Origin: Daphnia carinata
Lineage: Eukaryota
DNA: 64,000 nucleotides
Reading direction: 5' to 3'
Assembly (NCBI RefSeq): GCF_022539665.2
Contig: NC_081334.1
Coordinates: forward strand, 2,232,001-2,296,000
This document shows, piece by piece, positions 10,381 to 58,901 of the stretch. How positions within the stretch are numbered: the first letter of the stretch is position 1; every line of letters begins with the position of its first letter. The notes beneath the pieces were generated by a model. That model worked only from the letters and a program-made list of their open reading frames with translations. It did not search any database and was not told the DNA's origin. The position numbers and the translations under genes are program-made.

Positions 10381-34970
<24,590 letters not shown>

Positions 34971-37900: not shown

Positions 37901-38657
37901 AAAATATTTATTTCAAAATATCATATTCTTTATTTCAACATCTAAAAATAACGAAGGAAGCCGCGTAAACTGGCGAAGATGGATGCCTTGATCAACTGCT
38001 TCTTCACAGATTTACCGTGCTCGGCGCGTACGGCAACTGAGAATCTTAACATAAGTCTGGCAACGCTTTTATCACATAGCATATCGCTATGGTTCTGTCT
38101 TCGGCTTCACCATTCGTGTGAACACATAATTTCTTTGATGCTGATCCTCGTGTAAAAATTTTTTCCTTCTTCACGCTCATTGTGAAAACGAAATGTCCGC
38201 TTCATTTTAGTGCTAGCTTTTTCCAATTTTAAATCCTTTATTTGATTAGTTTGTTTTTGTCCAGCCGTGCTGACGGAATATTTTCAAAAAAGCATTTTAA
38301 AAAGTCTGCCCTTGTTCCAAAAACACTGTATACTACCATCGAGCCCTCGCCCATATCATTAAAAGAATTTTCACAAATTTCAATTACATCTTTCGCCTAG
38401 TGCCGTAATTTTTCGTTTGCACTTGAAACTGGAGTTTCGTTAACGGTATGTAAACTCAATTTTTATATTGTTTTCAGTAATGTGAAAAGGGTTGCAGACA
38501 ATTAACAACATTGTTTCTTCTTTCTGGCAGATGAGATGACTAGTGTTTAATTGGAGATATGAGTTGTTGCCTAGGCAGCTGTGTTTTTGTTTCCAAGTAA
38601 TAGCTCGGCTTATCCATCTCTAGCTTGCACAGCAGTCTGAAAATCTTCAGAAGTTAT

Positions 38658-41600
38658 ATGCCAGCGTCCAGAGGACGGAGTAGTGGGAGGGGTATGGGTG
38701 ACACTGCTGCCAATGAAAGTCTAGCTCAGAGAAACCTGGTAGACATAAATGTGGCCACCGTTGAAGAGCTTTCCACCCTTGTAGGGGTAGGTCGCAGTAG
38801 AGCTGAAGCCATAGTGGAAACGAGAAATGTAAGTTAACTGTTTAACTAACACTATATTCAGTGCTGTTCTTTAGTCATTCTTTCTTGTTCCTAGTCTCTC
38901 GGAGGATTTACTTCCATTGAAGATCTGAGTCTGGCCCCTGGTGTGGGGACAAATCTGATTGAAGCCAATCGCCAGATTCTAACAGTTTCAGCTCCAGTTC
39001 AGTCATCTCAGGTTAATACTAGAAAAGCCAACACTCGGAACAGGTAAATTGAACAAAGCTTGCCACTTCTGTTGTTTTGCTCTGGGTGTACGATAACCTG
39101 ATTCATCATCTACTTAGTTTTGTACAAAGTTGCCTACTCATTGTTAACTCAAATTGGTTTATTTCTATATAACAAATTTTTTTGTCCCAGAAGTAGTGAT
39201 AATACAAGCGCTCAACCAACTCCGAGCACCACACCAGTGATATCTAGTTCAAGTGATACTGCGGCTGAAGATCAGCAAAACGACAGCGGAAGCAGCAGCA
39301 GCAACGAATGGGGTGCTTGTCGATTGAGGCAACGCCGGTCGACTAGCCGAATCAATCCGCTTCCAGTTGGTAAATCGGCTTCGCTTCGACAAACTCGGAG
39401 CAATGACAGTGCCATTCAGTCACCTTCACCTCTCCCCACGACTCCTACCTCGTCAACACCCGCCGCACCTGCCATCGATGCCAGCAATGTGCCCCTTAAA
39501 GAAGGATCACCCACATCGGAAAATGAAGATGTTGTCAGACCCGGAGCGGTAAGTCTTTGTGATATCATTGAATATGTAAACATGGTGTGCAATCAAAATC
39601 GTGTCTTAGACCAAACGGAAGTCGGAGTCAACAGTGGAAATGTCTGCCGAAGTAGCCACAGAGAAAAAGACATGTCGAAGGAGTGAAGGTGTAGATTCAT
39701 CTTCTTCCTCAGTCTACTGCCATGTTCACCGGAATCCAATCCCTTCGAAAGACAACCCTCCGCCAGGTTTTTGTCAATGGCTTCACACTTTCCAAGTATT
39801 GTTATGTTTTTTTATAATCACTTAACGAGTTTTGATGCTAAAAATCGTAATCTTTCTTAGTATTGGTCGAACGCTGAGCGTTTGTGTGCCATTGACCAGT
39901 TAATAGAACTGTGTGAGCCCACTCAGGTCCGTCATATGATGGCTGTGATTGAACCACAGTTCCAGCGCGACTTTATCTCGTTGCTGCCCAAAGAACTGGC
40001 CCTGTATGTGCTCAGTTTCCTCACGCCTCGCGACTTAACTCGCGCCGCACAAACCTGCCGTTGTTGGCGAGTCCTGGCTGAGGACAATCTCCTCTGGAGG
40101 GAAAAATGTCGTGAAGCAGGTATCGATGATGTTCGTGATACACTGAACAAACGACGTCTTCGTGGATCTTCCCATCACTCAAGTCTCAGTTGTGGTCTTT
40201 CTTCCCCCACTGGATCCAGCCAAAGCACTGCGCCAATTATCACTCCGTCGCCGTGGAAGGTGAATAATCCAGGATCATTGAGTTGGGAATCTGAATCAAA
40301 ACTTTTCTTTCAGGCGACTTATATGCGTCACCGGAATATCGAGTTGAATTGGCGAGTGAGGCCGATCCCACAGCCAAGGGTACTGAAGGGTCATGACGAT
40401 CACGTCATAACTTGTTTACAGTTTTGTGGCAACCGTATCGTTTCCGGATCGGATGACAACACGCTCAAAGTCTGGTCGGCGACTACCGGAAAGGTACCTA
40501 ATATGTGCCCTATCTATACACCATCAAATAACGAAAAAAATAATCGCGAACAAATTATTATGAGACCAACAAAATTCATTTATTCTTATTTCACATAACA
40601 GTGCCTGAGGACCTTGGTGGGTCACACTGGAGGCGTCTGGTCTTCTCAGATGCAAGGGAACATAATAGTGAGTGGAAGTACAGATCGAACCTTGAAAGTC
40701 TGGAACGCTGAATCTGGACAGTGTTTACACACATTATACGGCCACACATCTACAGTCCGTTGTATGCATTTACACGGAAACAAGTCAGTTTGTTTTTAAT
40801 TTTCCTCATTAAAGTTACAGTAGCTTTCGCCACTGTCAAACTAATTTAATAACATCAATACTCTTCTAGAGTGGTGAGTGGATCACGGGACGCCACGTTA
40901 CGTGTTTGGGACGTGGAGACAGGAGAGTGCTTGCACGTTCTTGTCGGCCACGTAGCCGCCGTTCGATGTGTGCAATATGACGGGCGCCTTGTCGTTAGTG
41001 GTGCCTATGACTATACTGTCAAAGTTTGGGATCCAGAGCGAGAGGAATGTCTTCACACTCTTCAGGGACACACCAATCGGGTCTACTCACTACAGGTAAG
41101 GAGATGTGAACGTTGCTATTTTGATTTTATTGATATCTAATGTCTATGGCAATTTGAAATTCAGTTTGACGGCATCCATGTAGTCAGCGGATCATTAGAT
41201 ACTAGCATTCGGGTGTGGGATGCGGAAACTGGAGCATGCAAGCACACATTAATGGGTCACCAGTCCCTCACGTCCGGAATGGAACTGCGCAATAACATCC
41301 TGGTCTCGGGGAATGCCGATTCCACCGTTAAAGTTTGGGATATAATCAGTGGCAAATGCCTTCAAACGCTTTCAGGTATAATGTTCTATTATGGAACGGG
41401 CTCATTGTGCAACTCATTAATGCCAACTGTTTTTTAGGAGCTAACAAGCACCAATCGGCTGTCACATGTCTTCAGTTCAATAATAAGTTTGTAATAACTT
41501 CGTCAGATGACGGAACTGTAAAGTTGTGGGATGTAAAAACAGGTATAATTTTAATGGTAAACATGTTTCGTTGTAACCAATTCGAAATTAATCGGATATT

Positions 41601-41786
41601 GTTTTTTTACACGCTACTCTAGGCGAATTCATCCGGAATTTGGTTTCTCTGGACAGTGGCGGCAGCGGAGGTGTCGTTTGGAGGATCAGAGCCGATGAAA
41701 CGCGTCTGGTCTGTGCTGTTGGAAGCCGTAATGGCACTGAAGAGACTAAGCTGCTCGTTCTCGATTTTGATATCGAAAGCAAGTGA
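38658..41786 (+). CDS. FBXW7: F-box/WD repeat protein 7 (archipelago) with an N-terminal tandem helix-hairpin-helix domain
   Basis: D-domain/F-box ([59 protein letters not shown]) and WD40 repeats ([86 protein letters not shown]). Upstream exons 38658-38828, 38895-39043, 39191-39548 and 39610-39795 are in frame. Stop TGA at 41784-41786. Confidence 0.96.
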
Positions 41787-47513: not shown

Positions 47514-48004
47514 GTCAATTAAACAACTAAATAAAAAAATGCAAAAAATAAATAATGTTACAAAGCATTTTATTTTCCCTCCTTCCACCCACAAATCCAC
47601 CACTATACATATTCCACATAATACAACATACAATACATACAAATACACTTAACTAACACGTTGGCTGCCACGCCACTACTATCTACTATAGCTACATCGC
47701 TATCTAAAGGATAGCGACCAAGGGGGACTGAGGACAGTCCGGGCTGAAACGGCGATGAGACCTTTACGGAAATGCACATCCCAGGTCTACATCGCCGTCT
47801 CGAACAAGGGATTCCCTATGGTGCATTGCCTATGGGCCATTCGGCCAATCTTGGGCAGTGGCGCTGCTCCACCCCATGGCAGATAGCCATGGAGCAGAAC
47901 AGCGCGGCCCGTCCCTGTCAAGCTACAAAAAAAAGGGGATAAAAGGTGGGTGGCAGCCAACGGGTTAGTTAACAATAAACATTGCAAAACACACACAATA
48001 CCAA

Positions 48005-48351
48005 AACGAAGAGGCGAAGACGCGGCGACCACGAAGCGAAGACGGGATGGCGGGCGAGGCGAAGGCGGGTCGACCACGAGGCGAAGAAGGGATGACCGGC
48101 GGGGCGAAGACATGGGCGACGGGCGAGGCGAAGACGCGGCGACTGGCGAGGCGACGGGCAAGGCGAAGACGCGGCGACTGGCGAGGCGAAGACGCGGCGA
48201 CTGGCGAGGCGACGGGCAAGGCGAAGACGCGGCGACTGGCGAGGCGACGGGCGAGGTGAAGACGGGCGTGGAGAAGAGGAAGAAGGCTTTGGCGACGGGC
48301 AAGGCGACGGGCGAGGTGAAGACGGGCGTGGAGAAGAGGAAGAAGGCTTTG
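48005..48351. repeat. GC-rich minisatellite (GGCGAGGCGAAGACGCGGCGACT units) plus a repeat with 60-bp period
   Basis: Repeats are directly visible; 48242-48291 is identical to 48302-48351. Confidence 0.9.
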
Positions 48352-51300
48352 TTCTGTATCGTAAATGTAAAGAAAAAGAATTACTTAGTGGGAAATAAAA
48401 GATTGCTGATGTAGCCAAATGTATGAAAGCAATTTGACTTACTTTTGTTGTCCAATGGCTAGAAATACTGTAGGGCCAGCAAATAGGCAGCAGACGGCAA
48501 AGAGTTGGCAGTCCTATGGTTGAATATTGAATTTATCAATCACACAAACTATACTAGGTATGAGAAAAGTTTACCAATGCCAATTTAAATTGTGTTGAAG
48601 TACATGTCTTTGTCTGTTGGTAGACAACTACCGAAATGGCTGTGGTTACAGTTGGCACTGCAGCATAAGACGAATTTGGTGCACCTGTTAGATTACAATT
48701 GACAGGAGACCATAAGCGGTTAAAGATTAGAAGAATAATATTATGGTATTCCTACGCATAGGATTTGCATCTTTGGTGACATTCCTCAACGGGAAGTATC
48801 CTTTACAAATGAAGTTTCATGAGCTAAACCTTAAAAGCAAATCCGTCAGTGAGATTCTGATAACAAAACATAAGTCTTATACCTCTCAATGAGCACCAGA
48901 ATAGTTTGATGAATGCAACATAATGGGTTGCGAATAGTTTTTTGGTTTGACAGCTGACATAGGTGATTACAAGACATGTAACACAAAAACCAAGCATTTT
49001 GTGGGCTTCACTTGCAAAACACACTCTAGGATGAAAACACACAGAACCACCATTAGATTTTCTTGAATTTTCCCTTGGAATACGACATACTTCACAAAAA
49101 CTTTCGAACACAGGTTTCACTACTCCCAGTCACCAAGTAAGCAGTGGCACAGCAGCGTCATCTTGTTTTCCAATTAATAACCGTAATATTCGTAAAAATT
49201 GAAAATCTTGTTTTTTCGAGACGGGAACGGCACTGATGTGAACTCTTTTAACAAACTTCTTGAGCGTGAATGACAAATATGGGGGGCCACCTCCCCCCCC
49301 CATATTTGTATCATTTCAATTTTATTTAAACAAATGCAGCGACCAAAATCATGAACAGCATTTTTATAATATAGCGATTTAACCTGTTTTTTTACTGTCT
49401 TTTATTTATTGATTCAAAAACCTAGATATTTCTAGGAAATACATAATTTGGGTTCACAATTCAACAAGAAGCTTGATTGCACTTCACATCTAGAAATTTC
49501 GCAACTTCACACATCTCTGGATTTCAAGCTATTAAACATTAATGCTGTCTGACAATACAGTTTTCTTTGTTGAACAACTGCAATATTATTTCGGCCATAT
49601 GTTTCACGGAAAAAATTCTCCACTGAGACAAGGACGTCGATTGAGCGTTGTCGTGTGCCTATTTCAGTTAAATGGATTACACCTTCATTTTTCTGCTCCG
49701 AATACATCATTTTTGCCTGGAATTTTGTTTTGAATGGTATAGTTAGAATACATTGCATTGTGTTCATTAGCTTAGATCACTTACTTTTTGTCATACGTTC
49801 TTTAATTGCGTGAGGCTGTGAAATCGTCGACAGGCGATATCTGAATGAGGAAGTCAGCAAAGAGATTGCAGACTCTTGAATAAACTCAATTCTGGGAATT
49901 ACGATTATATCGAATGCAAAATATTAATAGCTCACAGTAAAATGAACACTAAATGAATCTAATCAGCTTTACACTATCCAATTATAACGTTGAAAAGAAA
50001 AAAAAAAAAAAAAGCTATTTGTCCGCATAAAAGAACCAACGCAGACTGGAAGTTTAACAAAAATAAGGAAAAAAATTAATTACGCAAAAAAAGTTAATCA
50101 GTAGCGGTCCATCTATCAGCCACAGAATAACAGAAATGTGATTCAGCCCAATCTAGAAAGCAAAATATTTTTTTGTTTTGTTATTGAAGAATGTATGTGT
50201 TCACTACAAACAAAAATGAGTAGTTGAAATATCTACCATAAAATGCCACTTTGAATGGCTGATCCTCCGTCATACAATGTCCTTCCAAAAAGTTATCAAA
50301 CAGTTAAATTGTGTGTCATTGGCTGGCTGCTCTATGTGCTAATGAAAAAAAAATGTTGGGTAAACCCATTCAAAAATTCAACGTTAGACATATACTTCTT
50401 CTTAACCTCCTGATTTGATCATCCTTGAAAATGACTGCTGGACAGATTAGGAGGCATCCGTAACATTACATTAGCAACACAGTTTTACCCGGGAAATCCT
50501 AAAAGAGAGAAAAAGAACAATTAAACTGTGTTGCATTTTACTAATAAAAAAGAGTGAAATATTTTGATAGTACATCAAGTTTTATCCTACAGCTGATTAA
50601 TGGTAAGACAAATGTAATCATCACCCTTAGGGTAGACATTTTCCGAAGTCCTGTTCGCCATGTCCCTGCTTTCTTTCAGCAGCGTTCCACCTAAAATGGC
50701 AAATGTTTGATTAACGTTAGAAAATTAGATATCTCTGAAGAAATGCATTACCCTGTGTAACATACTTGACGATGATGGAGAATCCTTGTTCCATCATGCA
50801 ATAAGAAGCTATATGGCAGTTGCCAGAAAGCCTGGATGGAAAAATCTATTCATTAGATTAATATTGATGGAATTTTATTGTACCATTTGCCTTTCAATTT
50901 ATTCATTCGATGCATGTTTATGGGATTTATCGTACCATTTGCCTGTCAAGCATTTCCTACTGCATAGGTGTTCGGGAATAATCACGGCTGTACGAACTTT
51001 GTGCTACAACTTGAATATGGCTCGTTGTTGTATCTGCTGAGGGCTTACATTACCGAAGCTGACTCTTGCTCACAGTTGGGTAAATCTATTAGATGGATTA
51101 GAATTTTCATTGATGTGACATAAAGGATGTCATCTAAAATAATGGATGAGACGGCACTATATTATGTTGACTTTCTAGACTGCTTCTGCCACGGACAAAT
51201 CACACCTGCACGCTCGACAGATCGTCAGCTGTTGGTAGTGTAGGTAGATATAGTCATAATTAGTTAACCGATCCACATCTGCCATATTTCGAAATCATCG

Positions 51301-56380: not shown

Positions 56381-58901
56381 TTACATGTCGTCTGCAGTAA
56401 AAAGACCTGGTCGTTCTTGATATAAGGAGCCGCGTGGAACAGCCGTGGCCAAGGTCGCTTCGGTCGTAGCTATTGAGACGCAGTAAGCTGACGTGTGCCC
56501 GAGCGTACCATGTCTCCGCAGCCCAGTTCCGTTACTCATTTCAAACATAACTAAAGAACGCACAAAGAAAACTGATCTGCTTGCTTTCTGATTACAAAAC
56601 CAACCGAAATGAATGTCTTTAAACATACCAGAGTTGGGTCTAGCATTGTGGGCGTCTTCGTCTTCGCAGCAACGGACGAAACAGCAACAAATTTGCGAGA
56701 ATCTCCGTCTCCGAGTGCAAGATCGAACCATCATGCGCCGAAAGTTGGTTGACATGAACCTATATATTTACAAAAATGCCTCTCATAATTAAAAAATCAC
56801 GCGATATTATTGCCTTTCTCAACTTACCCGTATATAACAGGATTGATGCAACTGTGAACAAACGGCAGCAAATAGAAAACAAAACGTAATTGGTAAACCG
56901 TGTGGTCATAGCTGGGCAGGCCCCACTTGATTATTACATTCAGTAATAGCCTTGGTCCCCAGCAAACGAGGAACAACAAAACGACCAATATCAGCATCTT
57001 GATGACCTGGTCAATCAAAATCAGTTCAAGTACCACCGAATCGATTGCAACCGATCTTTTCAATGAGTTCCATTATTTAATTTTAGTAGCCTATCACCTG
57101 TTTACGGGCTTGTTTTGCACCGTCACCGCTGCGTGCATGGCCATACTTATTAGTCGGTTTACGAACGTGATGAGGCTCTTGGTGGTGAGACTGCATGTGA
57201 CTAAGCCGGCCTGTGACAGTGTTAAGTCCTGGGCCATGATTGGATCCCCATCCGGTTTGAACATTTTGTACGTCAAGACGGCGCGGTGAGCCACTGTTGC
57301 ATTCGCGTGTCATGGCCGTGATTTGCTTTGTCGAAAGCCATAGCTCCTGAATGACTCGTGAATAGCAGATAATCATGAGGAGCAGCGGGAGAACGAGCAT
57401 GATGAGGAGCTGGTAGAGAGCGATGACGAAACCGCTGTAAGCACCTAAACCTTGATCCTGACCGATATCTCCTGTATCCATACAATCTTCTGACAGATTC
57501 CATTGTTGTAATTCATTATTTTATTCCTTTATAAATGTAAATCATTTAGGTATTTCAAAATGTTAACTCACAGTGAACGGCAACAGATGTCTTGTTGTTA
57601 TAATAGATGTATGTGACACTGTCCTATTCGCATTCAAGTGATCAAACAAAAAATGAATTGTCTTTATGGTACTCTGTTAACGTAGTAAAAACTTACTCGG
57701 GCCCAAACGGACGGAGCTGTAAGTAAAAGGGCAAAAATCCAGACTGCAATTAAAGCTCTTCGGCAGTTGTGCAGCGTACAAAATGATCGTGACTTCATTG
57801 GGTATACAATCACTAAGTACCTAAAAAGAATTGAAAATATTAATAATAAATGAATCAAAATCTATGGCCAAATTTTTTTTGTGCTTCCAAGATACAAATT
57901 TAAAATACTAAGCCGACACTACCAACAAAACGGCAGGCTGTTATATATGCCGCTATTTATACATCGTATAATTTTGACATCGTTTTACTCTTCACAGCTG
58001 TCAGTCGTAAATTATGGTACATCAGCTGTCATTATCGATTAATAATTATCGATATTAGTCTACGTTATTCAGTCGACTTTGACTGCGCAACTATAATTCG
58101 ACCACAAATCAACGGATTACCAGCGACTATATCCCATAAGTCCTAATGGACGAAATTCAATCATGCGGAAGCAGAAAGCAATTACATATGAAGACCGAAG
58201 AACAATGACTTCCCTAAATCTACCGATGGCATTAGCTATAATTGATTAAATTTCAGCCCAAATTTGGGCAAGAAAGAAAAGAAAAAGATCACAAGCGTAA
58301 CTTTCGTAATCTTCATCTATATAGATTTGTCATTGCAGAAGACGACACGAGGGGCCAAACGTGACTTGGGTTTAACTACATGCCGCCTATAGATGTTTAA
58401 TCAACCGTAGCATTGGAATTGTAGACTATGCCCCCGCAGAGTTCCACTTTTCTTTGTTCAGAAGGCGTTTCCTTTTAAAACACACACACACACACACCCC
58501 CTTCCTTATTATATCAATTGAAGACGTCAATACGTACAAGTGGGCAAGCCTCATTCGTGTTTCACCCTCATAGAGCCTGCTTGTTAGTAGGGCAATAAAG
58601 GTCTTAGATGCGAGCCTGATAACAGTTGGAACAAAGTCGCTGGCTATGCCGTCATAACAATATCAAACCTTGTTTGCGAAATCAAAATAAAATGCGATAA
58701 AATAGTTGTGTTTACCTTTCTAAGCTGACTGCTGTGAGATTGAGGACGGAAGCGACAGCTGACAACATTTCCACGTAGTACTGGAGTTGACAGAGTCGGC
58801 CGCCTTTAGTCCACGGATTCAGAAAGTAGCCCATGGTCTCCAGCGGAGCGCTCACAGCTACCAAAAGAAGATCAGCCACCGCTAAGCTCACCAGAAACAT
58901 G
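56381..58901 (-). CDS. Class A (rhodopsin-like) neuropeptide-type GPCR, TM2-TM7 and C-tail; N-terminus/TM1 exon not located
   Basis: Exons ~58715-58901 (MFLVSLAVADLLL..CQL..SVLNLTAVSLER), 57697-57820 (YLVIVYPMKSR..VWIFALLLTAP), 57572-57623, 57098-57487 (TM5 LPLLLMIICYSRV), 56828-57007 (VIKMLILVVLLFLVCWGP..HSCINPVIYG) and 56381-56759 (FMSTNFRR..). ERY, CWxP and NPxxY motifs are present. Confidence 0.92.

What the first reader, a model, noticed from the sequence alone, without database searches (positions are those of the whole stretch)
38658..39043. FBXW7/archipelago carries an N-terminal ComEA/EEPD1-type tandem helix-hairpin-helix DNA-binding domain
Seen in sequence: exons 38658-38828 and 38895-39043 splice (AAT|GTAAGT...CTAG|TCT) into [62 protein letters not shown]. 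This fits the ComEA/HHH_3 pattern (xINxAsxeELxxLpGiGxxxAxxIixxRxxxGxFxsxedLxxvpGiG). The frame continues without a break through phase 2, 0 and 0 junctions and a Ser/Pro-rich linker to the dimerisation domain, F-box and WD40 repeats. Established: human FBXW7 and Drosophila Ago have no HhH domain; HhH pairs bind DNA without sequence specificity; human FBXW7 acts on chromatin substrates (Myc, Notch ICD, cyclin E) and at DNA breaks. Inference: this would be an SCF substrate receptor with its own DNA tether. The spliceosomal intron inside the domain argues against bacterial contamination. I cannot tell whether this architecture has already been reported.
Basis: partly seen in the sequence, partly recalled or inferred. 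Interest (0 to 1): 0.88.

Follow-up and report, generated by a model that had tools for sequence, protein, structure and literature searches.

The report
Ancestral FBXW7 carries DNA-binding-type domain
The water-flea version of the tumour-suppressor ubiquitin-ligase adaptor FBXW7 begins with a helix-hairpin-helix domain that many invertebrate groups and a second FBXW7 gene of sharks, amphibians, reptiles and birds also carry, while the insect copies and the human-type sturgeon copy we examined lack it; it likely tethers the ligase to DNA, a role that is still untested.

Summary
The 11-exon gene gives 776 aa, identical to RefSeq Daphnia carinata FBXW7-like X1. Residues 27-89 form one ComEA-type (HhH)2 domain (Pfam E 2e-16; model matches ComEA, TM 0.88). 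It is spliced into RNA and as conserved as the WD40 propeller (pN/pS 0.017).

It is not a Daphnia oddity. 96 of the 120 best-scoring orthologues listed carry it (ranking favours carriers): echinoderms, a hemichordate, amphioxus, molluscs, an annelid, a brachiopod, a nemertean, crustaceans, ticks. So does a second jawed-vertebrate FBXW7-like gene (sharks to birds), a paralogue of the human-type gene. These domains form one clade and share the same phase-0 intron, so the fusion predates the protostome-deuterostome split. The insect, spider, scorpion, horseshoe-crab and canonical sturgeon copies examined lack it.

The two ComEA lysines most needed for transformation are kept as arginines (R48, R83). 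A DNA tether acting through the FBXW7 dimer is the likeliest role (0.6), untested; the Daphnia domain is net acidic. The architecture is in automated annotations, but my searches of the open library found no paper on it; the scan's notes had nothing similar. New variant; interest 0.72.

The parts
38176..38445 (+). 5' untranslated exon (start approximate); donor GTATGT at 38446
   Evidence: RNA contigs cover 38176-38368 plus 76 further letters before joining 38530/38531; donor and acceptor read from sequence
38531..38657 (+). 5' UTR part of the first coding exon, with an in-frame stop at 38601-38603, so the ORF cannot extend upstream
38658..38828 (+). Coding exon 1 (aa 1-57): start codon and first HhH motif (hairpin GVG at aa 43-45, R48, invariant R56)
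38736..38990 (+). ComEA-type (HhH)2 domain, aa 27-89, split by the intron
   Evidence: Pfam HHH_3 and TIGR00426; model pLDDT 92.9; Foldseek ComEA 8dss TM 0.88, rmsd 0.9
38829..38894 (+). 66-nt phase-0 intron between the two HhH motifs (N57|S58); same position in three other animal loci and, by inference, in the vertebrate paralogue
38895..39043 (+). Coding exon 2 (aa 58-107): second HhH motif (hairpin GVG at aa 73-75, R83) and start of linker
39191..39548 (+). Coding exon 3: Ser/Thr/Pro-rich linker, predicted disordered
   Evidence: pLDDT under 50 over the matching region of the Glandiceps model; 69% identity to L001 against 97-98% for the folded domains
39610..39795 (+). Coding exon 4: bipartite basic motif (aa 227-251, nuclear-localisation-like) and start of the dimerisation region
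   Evidence: the basic pattern is present in 113 of 120 orthologues; its role as a nuclear signal is recalled from human FBXW7
39861..40259 (+). Coding exon 5: dimerisation (D) region, F-box (about 39975-40112) and helical linker
   Evidence: Pfam F-box-like E 1.2e-15; the D-domain label is from alignment to the FBXW7 family and recall
40314..41786 (+). Coding exons 6-11 (40314-40493, 40602-40783, 40870-41095, 41165-41375, 41438-41542, 41623-41786): WD40 propeller with R534, R548, R574 (= human R465, R479, R505) and stop

Best explanation
This is the single intact Daphnia FBXW7 locus in the window, and its protein begins with a ComEA-type (HhH)2 domain that is the inferred ancestral bilaterian state of FBXW7 and likely tethers the SCF ligase to DNA. 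Shown: the domain, its splicing into the FBXW7 message, strong purifying selection, a spread over both protostomes and deuterostomes as one clade with a shared intron, and retention in a second jawed-vertebrate FBXW7-like gene. Inferred mechanism: the hairpin glycines and R48/R83 make weak, sequence-independent contacts with the DNA backbone. FBXW7 dimerises through its D region (recalled), so two domains on disordered linkers of about 185 residues would bind by avidity. This would hold the ligase on chromatin or at breaks while the WD40 propeller picks phosphodegrons on DNA-bound substrates (Myc, Notch intracellular domain, cyclin E, XRCC4 in human) and the F-box links to Skp1-Cul1 for ubiquitylation. 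Insects, several chelicerates and the human-type vertebrate gene would have lost the domain and rely on substrate, poly(ADP-ribose) or ATM-dependent recruitment.
For: Profile hits in 35 of 35 aligned domains to HHH_3 and TIGR00426. The model superposes on ComEA's DNA-binding domain (TM 0.88, rmsd 0.9). pN 0.015 vs pS 0.86 in the domain, like WD40 (0.018/0.73) and unlike the linker (0.184/0.61). B. subtilis ComEA K164 and K199, whose loss cuts transformation over 100-fold (PMC9747964 passages), align to R48 and R83 (8DFK alignment; numbering inferred from the 29/4/2 lysine spacing). They are K/R in 81 and 65 of 96 orthologues, both in 59; the first G-h-G hairpin is intact in 87 of 96. The weak-effect K193 and K197 positions are not kept. 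All 15 domains without K/R at the K164 site are chelicerate or myriapod, and chelicerates are also where whole-domain loss is seen. The vertebrate paralogue's domain is strongly basic (median +8, n=18). EEPD1's (HhH)2 domains need the dimer for DNA binding (PMC12988330 passages), which fits a dimeric FBXW7. Human FBXW7 already works at DNA breaks (PMC6486556 abstract and introduction). A nuclear-signal-like motif is in 113 of 120 and the three phospho-binding arginine motifs in 118 of 120.
Against: No binding or localisation data exist here. The Daphnia domain has net charge -4 and the invertebrate median is 0 (n=78). The second hairpin keeps G-h-G in only 49 of 96. K199 does not touch DNA in the ComEA model and its mutant lost only about 2-fold affinity in vitro. 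EEPD1's isolated N-terminal fragment with two such domains does not bind DNA stably. The same fold also occurs in PsbU and the pseudopilin GspK, which are not DNA-binding proteins (recalled). Repeated loss (5 changes on the 118-row tree) shows the domain is dispensable in several lineages.
Confidence: 0.6

Rival explanations
1. The domain is a protein-contact module, as the (HhH)2 domains of XPF-ERCC1 are: it would bind a partner, a substrate class, a second FBXW7 copy or the protein's own arginine-rich WD40 pocket, and DNA contact would be secondary.
For: Acidic or neutral net charge in invertebrates. The invariant residues are mostly structural (D, N, A, I, R, F). (HhH)2 heterodimerisation in XPF-ERCC1 is cited in PMC12988330. 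Fold matches include PsbU and GspK.
Against: The K164-equivalent basic residue and the first G-h-G hairpin are kept in 81 and 87 of 96. The closest human relative, EEPD1's N-terminus, shows negligible self-association. ComEA-type domains lack the connector helix of canonical (HhH)2.
Confidence: 0.15
2. The domain binds another polyanion, nascent RNA or poly(ADP-ribose), and would place the ligase at transcription complexes or damage sites rather than on duplex DNA.
For: Structural and profile matches include the transcription factors Tex, TEFM and a Pol II-SPT6 complex chain. Human FBXW7 is recruited by poly(ADP-ribose) through its WD40 domain.
Against: The best matches by far are ComEA and EEPD1, both described as DNA binders; EEPD1 prefers dsDNA.
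Confidence: 0.12
3. The domain does bind DNA, but its job is to sequester or time FBXW7 (for example parking it on mitotic chromosomes or in DNA-rich embryonic nuclei, as the HhH of the chromokinesin KIF22 is recalled to do), lowering rather than raising activity on soluble substrates.
For: KIF22's C-terminal domain matches the profile (E 3e-10). Vertebrate paralogue models without the domain are common, which would allow tethered and free isoforms, although many may be incomplete models.
Against: No direct evidence; classical FBXW7 substrates are chromatin-associated, which favours the tether reading (recalled).
Confidence: 0.11
4. The upstream exons are a neighbouring gene, a transposon relic or a bacterial contaminant joined to FBXW7 by annotation, or a functionless vestige.
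For: An old D. pulex model (P0176) starts at the downstream Met and omits the domain. No single RNA contig of a near-identical strain spans the whole gene.
Against: Single transcript-type contigs link the domain to the F-box (L001; X4 record 19). pN/pS is 0.017. The same architecture is in 96 of 120 orthologues, as one clade (97/96) with a shared intron.
Confidence: 0.02

Closest known systems
Human FBXW7 / Drosophila Archipelago / yeast Cdc4 (SCF substrate receptor)
   Same: D region, F-box, WD40 propeller, the three phosphodegron-binding arginines and a basic nuclear-signal-like motif; the tree places the Daphnia protein among arthropod FBXW7.
   Different: An N-terminal (HhH)2 domain. The canonical sturgeon FBXW7 model and 13 of 13 insect-clade rows have none. 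That human FBXW7 and fly Ago lack it is recalled; PDB constructs of human FBXW7 start after this region, so I could not test it.
ComEA DNA-binding domain (Pfam HHH_3 PF12836, TIGR00426; PDB 8DSS, 8DFK)
   Same: Fold (TM 0.88, rmsd 0.9), both hairpins, K164 and K199 positions kept basic.
   Different: Fused to a nuclear ubiquitin-ligase adaptor and split by a spliceosomal intron; K193 and K197 not kept; neutral or acidic in invertebrates; below the full-length comE cut-off (50.4 vs 152 bits); a separate clade from 40 ComEA-like units.
EEPD1 (two (HhH)2 domains plus an EEP domain; PDB 9YI2)
   Same: Closest human protein in the PDB sequence search; flexibly tethered HhH domains on a dimeric core.
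   Different: FBXW7 has one unit per chain and no nuclease-fold domain; per single domain, B. subtilis ComEA scores higher than EEPD1's first unit against the family profile (68 vs 56 bits), so the donor is unresolved.
F-box or cullin receptors with DNA-binding parts: CXXC F-box proteins (KDM2A/B, FBXL19), FBH1 helicase, FBXO21 (YccV-like), DDB2
   Same: A ubiquitin-ligase receptor carrying its own DNA-contact module (domains listed in figure legends; DDB2; gene names recalled).
   Different: None uses a ComEA-type HhH, and none is an FBXW7 orthologue.
Xenopus 'Fbxw7-like' genes Fbxw29-33 (PMC4556705)
   Same: Extra Fbxw7-related genes reported in an amphibian (passages).
   Different: Described as Xenopus-specific and only moderately similar; the main text has 0 occurrences of 'helix' or 'HhH'. 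I did not test whether one of them is the HhH-bearing paralogue; supplements were not read.

Membership tests
FBXW7/Cdc4 orthologues | F-box followed by WD40 propeller | tested here: met
   Pfam F-box-like E 1.2e-15 and WD40 hits on four exon frames
FBXW7/Cdc4 orthologues | Three phosphodegron-binding arginines (human R465, R479, R505) | tested here: met
   R534, R548, R574; human positions from the PDB chain alignment and PMC6486556 abstract
FBXW7/Cdc4 orthologues | Groups with FBXW7 of related animals | tested here: met
   Identical to RefSeq D. carinata FBXW7-like X1; inside the arthropod set, 100/99; no non-FBXW7 outgroup was in the tree
FBXW7/Cdc4 orthologues | Dimerisation through the D domain and SCF assembly | not testable with these tools
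   Region 98% conserved to L001 and helical in the model; function recalled from human
ComEA-type (HhH)2 domain (PF12836 / TIGR00426) | Profile score above curated cut-off | tested here: met
   60.4 vs 27 bits; 61.5 vs 53.1 bits
ComEA-type (HhH)2 domain (PF12836 / TIGR00426) | Two HhH motifs joined by a loop, compact four-helix fold | tested here: met
   Model helices 13-16, 23-37, 43-48, 54-63, pLDDT 92.9; TM 0.88 to 8DSS
ComEA-type (HhH)2 domain (PF12836 / TIGR00426) | G-h-G hairpins and the conserved basic residue at ComEA K164 | tested here: met
   Both hairpins GVG and R48 in Daphnia; 87, 49 and 81 of 96 orthologues
ComEA-type (HhH)2 domain (PF12836 / TIGR00426) | Binds DNA without sequence specificity | not testable with these tools
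   Needs a binding assay; net charge -4 in Daphnia, +8 median in the vertebrate paralogue
ComEA competence protein (whole protein) | Bacterial envelope protein matching the full comE model | tested here: not met
   Domain scores 50.4 against a cut-off of 152; intron-containing animal gene
EEPD1 | Two (HhH)2 units and an EEP domain | tested here: not met
   One unit only in the window's six frames; no EEP hit on the eight exon frames scanned
Jawed-vertebrate FBXW7-like as a paralogue of human-type FBXW7 | Shark-to-bird clade that excludes canonical FBXW7 | tested here: met
   8 rows, 99/97, sister to sturgeon canonical P0209, 98/90; only one canonical row, a partly misassembled model used over 223 columns
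Jawed-vertebrate FBXW7-like as a whole-genome-duplication ohnologue | Lies in a paralogous chromosome block | not tested
   Five read-through models fuse RRP8 to it, which places it beside RRP8; the 11p15/4q31 paralogy (ARFIP, TRIM2/3, DCHS pairs) is recalled and the paper search gave nothing on it

The most novel reading that the evidence does not exclude
The ancestral animal FBXW7 was a DNA-anchored ubiquitin ligase receptor. After the vertebrate genome duplications the job was split: the human-type copy dropped the tether, while a second, unstudied gene next to RRP8 kept a strongly basic (HhH)2 domain from sharks to birds and was lost in mammals. Chicken cells therefore still carry a DNA-tethered SCF-FBXW7, and the poly(ADP-ribose)/ATM recruitment of human FBXW7 is a replacement for the lost tether.
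Probability: 0.4. Interest if true: 0.87.

Novelty: new variant of a known kind. Interest (0 to 1): 0.72.

Why it matters
FBXW7 is one of the most studied tumour-suppressor ligases, but mainly from mammals and fly, which appear to be lineages without this domain. If the domain binds DNA, the ancestral enzyme had a built-in route to chromatin, which bears directly on the open question of whether FBXW7 substrates such as Myc and Notch are destroyed on or off DNA. It is cheap to test: express the domain, or delete it in Daphnia, sea urchin, or chicken cells. It also flags an overlooked second FBXW7 gene in non-mammalian vertebrates (often mislabelled as an RRP8 isoform) that could confound FBXW7 loss-of-function work in chicken, reptiles and amphibians.

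Tried and rejected
Whole genome: none held, so copy number in D. carinata outside the window and synteny were not checked; RRP8 has no tblastn match in the window. The 50%-representative search with the domain alone returned 15,775 hits whose best 150 were multi-repeat ComEA-like proteins: useful only as an outgroup, not for range or donor. The two word-indexed searches with the domain alone found just 5 and 4 proteins, an underestimate corrected by the full-length profile. Atlas searches gave only sub-0.9 bacterial HHH_3 clusters and generic FBXW7 clusters. The domain alignment was too variable for a locus scan; the full-length alignment gave 31 loci, 4 with the domain and 27 without; many of the 27 are short or begin downstream, and 5 kb of flank is too little to prove loss in the insect-like ones. 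VIA-align jobs could not be queued. The first codon count had an offset error and was replaced. No complex prediction was run. The scan's earlier notes held nothing on this (the four look-alikes were bacterial WD40 proteins). Rejected: contamination, a Daphnia-specific gain, recent transfer from bacteria, and an EEPD1 gene fragment. Not resolved: presence outside bilaterians (no cnidarian, sponge or fungal name among the 120 rows listed), in nematodes, teleosts, frogs or mammals (none among the rows or cluster members listed, which is weak evidence), and the donor of the domain.
Full report
Observation. The window holds an 11-exon F-box/WD40 gene on the + strand, 38658-41786. All ten introns are GT-AG and the spliced frame gives 776 residues without a stop. 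It is 776/776 identical to XP_057374171.1, Daphnia carinata FBXW7-like isoform X1. An in-frame stop lies upstream of the ATG in the same exon, and the next Met after M1 and M13 is M237. Pfam HHH_3 matches exon 1 at model positions 4-35 (E 2.8e-8) and exon 2 at 37-64 (E 0.067), so the two exons complete one domain. The letter-identical D. magna stretch scores 60.4 bits against a cut-off of 27 and passes the ComEA repeat model TIGR00426 (61.5 vs 53.1). An AlphaFold model built on 35 family domains has pLDDT 92.9, and its best PDB match is the ComEA DNA-binding domain (8DSS, TM 0.88, rmsd 0.9). It is one (HhH)2 unit; no second one lies in the window's six frames.

Expression and selection. No run held more than 28% of the sampled words, so the RNA comes from related Daphnia and cladocerans in freshwater samples. 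Their contigs join 38828 to 38895 and the 39043 donor to exon 3 in 3 of 4 runs and 4 of 4 (three runs are shared between the calls; those are one study). The 39548/39610 junction is crossed by one contig but not placed exactly. One 2385-nt contig carries HhH exon 1 and the F-box exon in order (X4 record 19), and the intronless contig L001 reads from the domain to the last WD40 repeat with no stop. Against L001, synonymous sites are near saturation in the domain (pS 0.86) while pN is 0.015; the WD40 region gives 0.73 and 0.018, the linker 0.61 and 0.184. The domain is as constrained as the substrate-binding propeller.

Range. A profile search with Daphnia and hemichordate proteins gave 1061 hits, of which the best 120 were listed. 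My own profile found the domain in 96 of the 120, always starting within the first 64 residues; 60 of the 74 rows with a species name have it. The ranking favours carriers, so this is not a frequency. Carriers include crinoids, starfish, brittle star, urchins, the hemichordate Glandiceps, amphioxus, the annelid Owenia, Lingula, the nemertean Lineus, a chiton, bivalves, gastropods, decapods, krill, a stomatopod, ticks and a degenerate copy in Strigamia. The 24 without are 13 insect-clade rows, 5 spider-clade rows, a scorpion-cluster row, Limulus, one unnamed arthropod, two N-terminally short cladoceran models and the sturgeon canonical FBXW7. Of 40 further cluster members scanned, only the 2 from carrier clusters had it. 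Some absences could be isoform or paralogue gaps. The label needs 5 changes on the 118-row tree; with carriers on both sides of the protostome-deuterostome split these read as losses.

Single origin. In a tree of 34 FBXW7 domains and the 40 best-scoring ComEA-like units, the FBXW7 domains form one side of a 97/96 branch (64 columns, bootstrap not fully settled). All 3 genomic loci from other animals that showed the domain (L014, L015, L016, of 31 loci) have a GT-AG phase-0 intron at exactly the Daphnia position. Among 79 cluster members scanned (mostly vertebrate), all 11 models with half a domain begin at the residue after that same position, which implies the same exon boundary. The fusion is therefore older than the last common bilaterian ancestor. 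Its donor is unresolved: ComEA scores above EEPD1's first unit per domain (68 vs 56 bits), and EEPD1 was not in the tree.

A second vertebrate gene. Eighteen of the 120 rows are jawed-vertebrate 'FBXW7-like' proteins with the domain: sharks and a sawfish, lungfish, caecilian, newt, lizards, snake, turtles, birds; alligator and chicken appear among cluster members. They form a 99/97 clade from shark to bird that excludes the sturgeon canonical protein, its sister at 98/90. Over about 102 columns around the F-box, the chicken protein differs from human FBXW7 at about 23 positions and the sturgeon canonical one at about 7 (counted by eye). So the duplication predates the shark-bony fish split. 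Five models fuse RRP8 onto the gene, which places it beside RRP8 and explains labels such as 'RRP8 isoform X2'. That this region is the genome-duplication partner of the FBXW7 region, and that humans have no such gene, is recalled, not tested. Only one canonical row was available, and it is a partly misassembled model.

Mechanism. In B. subtilis ComEA, K164A and K199A cut transformation more than 100-fold, K193A and K197A only 2- to 4-fold, and the K164 equivalent is needed for DNA binding in vitro (PMC9747964, passages). On the 8DFK alignment (numbering inferred from lysine spacing) K164 and K199 fall on R48 and R83. These are K/R in 81 and 65 of 96 domains, both in 59; the first hairpin is G-h-G in 87 and the second in 49. 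The K193 and K197 sites are not kept. The 15 domains without the K164 residue are all chelicerate or myriapod. Against this, net charge is -4 in Daphnia and 0 at the invertebrate median, although +8 in the vertebrate paralogue; K199 does not contact DNA in the ComEA model; and EEPD1's two units alone do not bind DNA stably, needing the full dimer (PMC12988330, passages). The simplest reading is a weak backbone grip made useful by avidity. FBXW7 dimerises (recalled), the linker is predicted disordered (residues 70-251 under pLDDT 50 in the Glandiceps model), a nuclear-signal-like motif is in 113 of 120 and the three phospho-binding arginine motifs are in 118 of 120. Human FBXW7 reaches breaks through poly(ADP-ribose) and ATM phosphorylation and ubiquitylates XRCC4 (PMC6486556, abstract and introduction). 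I put the tether at 0.6, a protein-contact module at 0.15, RNA or poly(ADP-ribose) binding at 0.12, sequestration on DNA at 0.11 and artefact at 0.02.

What is known. The architecture is visible in automated annotation (precomputed PF12836 on RefSeq proteins). In the open library, FBXW7 + helix-hairpin-helix gave 1 paper, on SMUG1 (listing); F-box + WD40 + helix-hairpin-helix + domain architecture gave 1, whose passages are only clan tables; Fbw7 + HhH gave 2 unrelated by title and abstract; none of the 30 listed for HhH1/F-box/WD40 contains 'HhH1'; a five-term evolution search gave 0; Fbxw7-like + chicken gave 2, of which the Xenopus F-box survey never mentions helix or HhH in its main text; the 15 of 31 listed for ohnologue terms were cancer and cytogenetics papers. 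Most subscription papers are outside this library and no supplements were read; a domain table there could list the architecture. F-box proteins with other DNA-binding modules exist (CXXC, YccV-like, UvrD; figure legends), so the concept is not new. The scan's own notes had nothing similar.

Verdict. Real, expressed, strongly selected and ancient. It is a new variant of a known kind: the inferred ancestral form of a famous protein, with a plausible but untested DNA tether, plus an overlooked vertebrate paralogue in which the test is easy. Interest 0.72.

Noticed in passing
P0296, P0312, P0315, P0325, P0326 (bird and turtle protein models): Read-through models fuse RRP8 (up to residue 388 of the turtle protein) to the second half of the HhH domain of FBXW7-like, so the paralogue is often labelled 'ribosomal RNA-processing protein 8 isoform'. 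Whether such chimeric messages are real was not tested.
   Followed up: partly
window 39191-39193: Tandem acceptor (CAG AAG) at exon 3: most RNA contigs use the site 3 nt downstream, one uses the upstream site, in line with the one-residue difference between D. carinata X1 and X2.
   Followed up: partly
window 38531-38539: A minimal upstream frame (ATG AGA TGA) opens the first coding exon's untranslated part, directly after the 5' UTR intron.
   Followed up: no
window 38991-38993 region, domain position 88: 92 of 96 domains end in a cysteine in the last strand; the four cladoceran-type rows have valine, as ComEA does.
   Followed up: no
P0213 (Strigamia), P0185, P0190, tick rows: Degenerate domains lacking the K164-equivalent basic residue cluster in myriapod and chelicerate rows, next to lineages that lack the domain; possible loss in progress.
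   Followed up: partly
window 47790-48530: GC-rich repeated stretch with long open frames on both strands; looks like a tandem or mobile repeat.
   Followed up: no
window 15950-17152 and 25181-26386 (+), 57086-57520 (-): Long stop-free frames that probably belong to neighbouring genes; the last reads like a membrane receptor exon. Not identified.
   Followed up: no
P0209 (Acipenser sinensis model): The only canonical vertebrate FBXW7 retrieved is misassembled: middle WD40 repeats missing and the last ones duplicated.
   Followed up: yes
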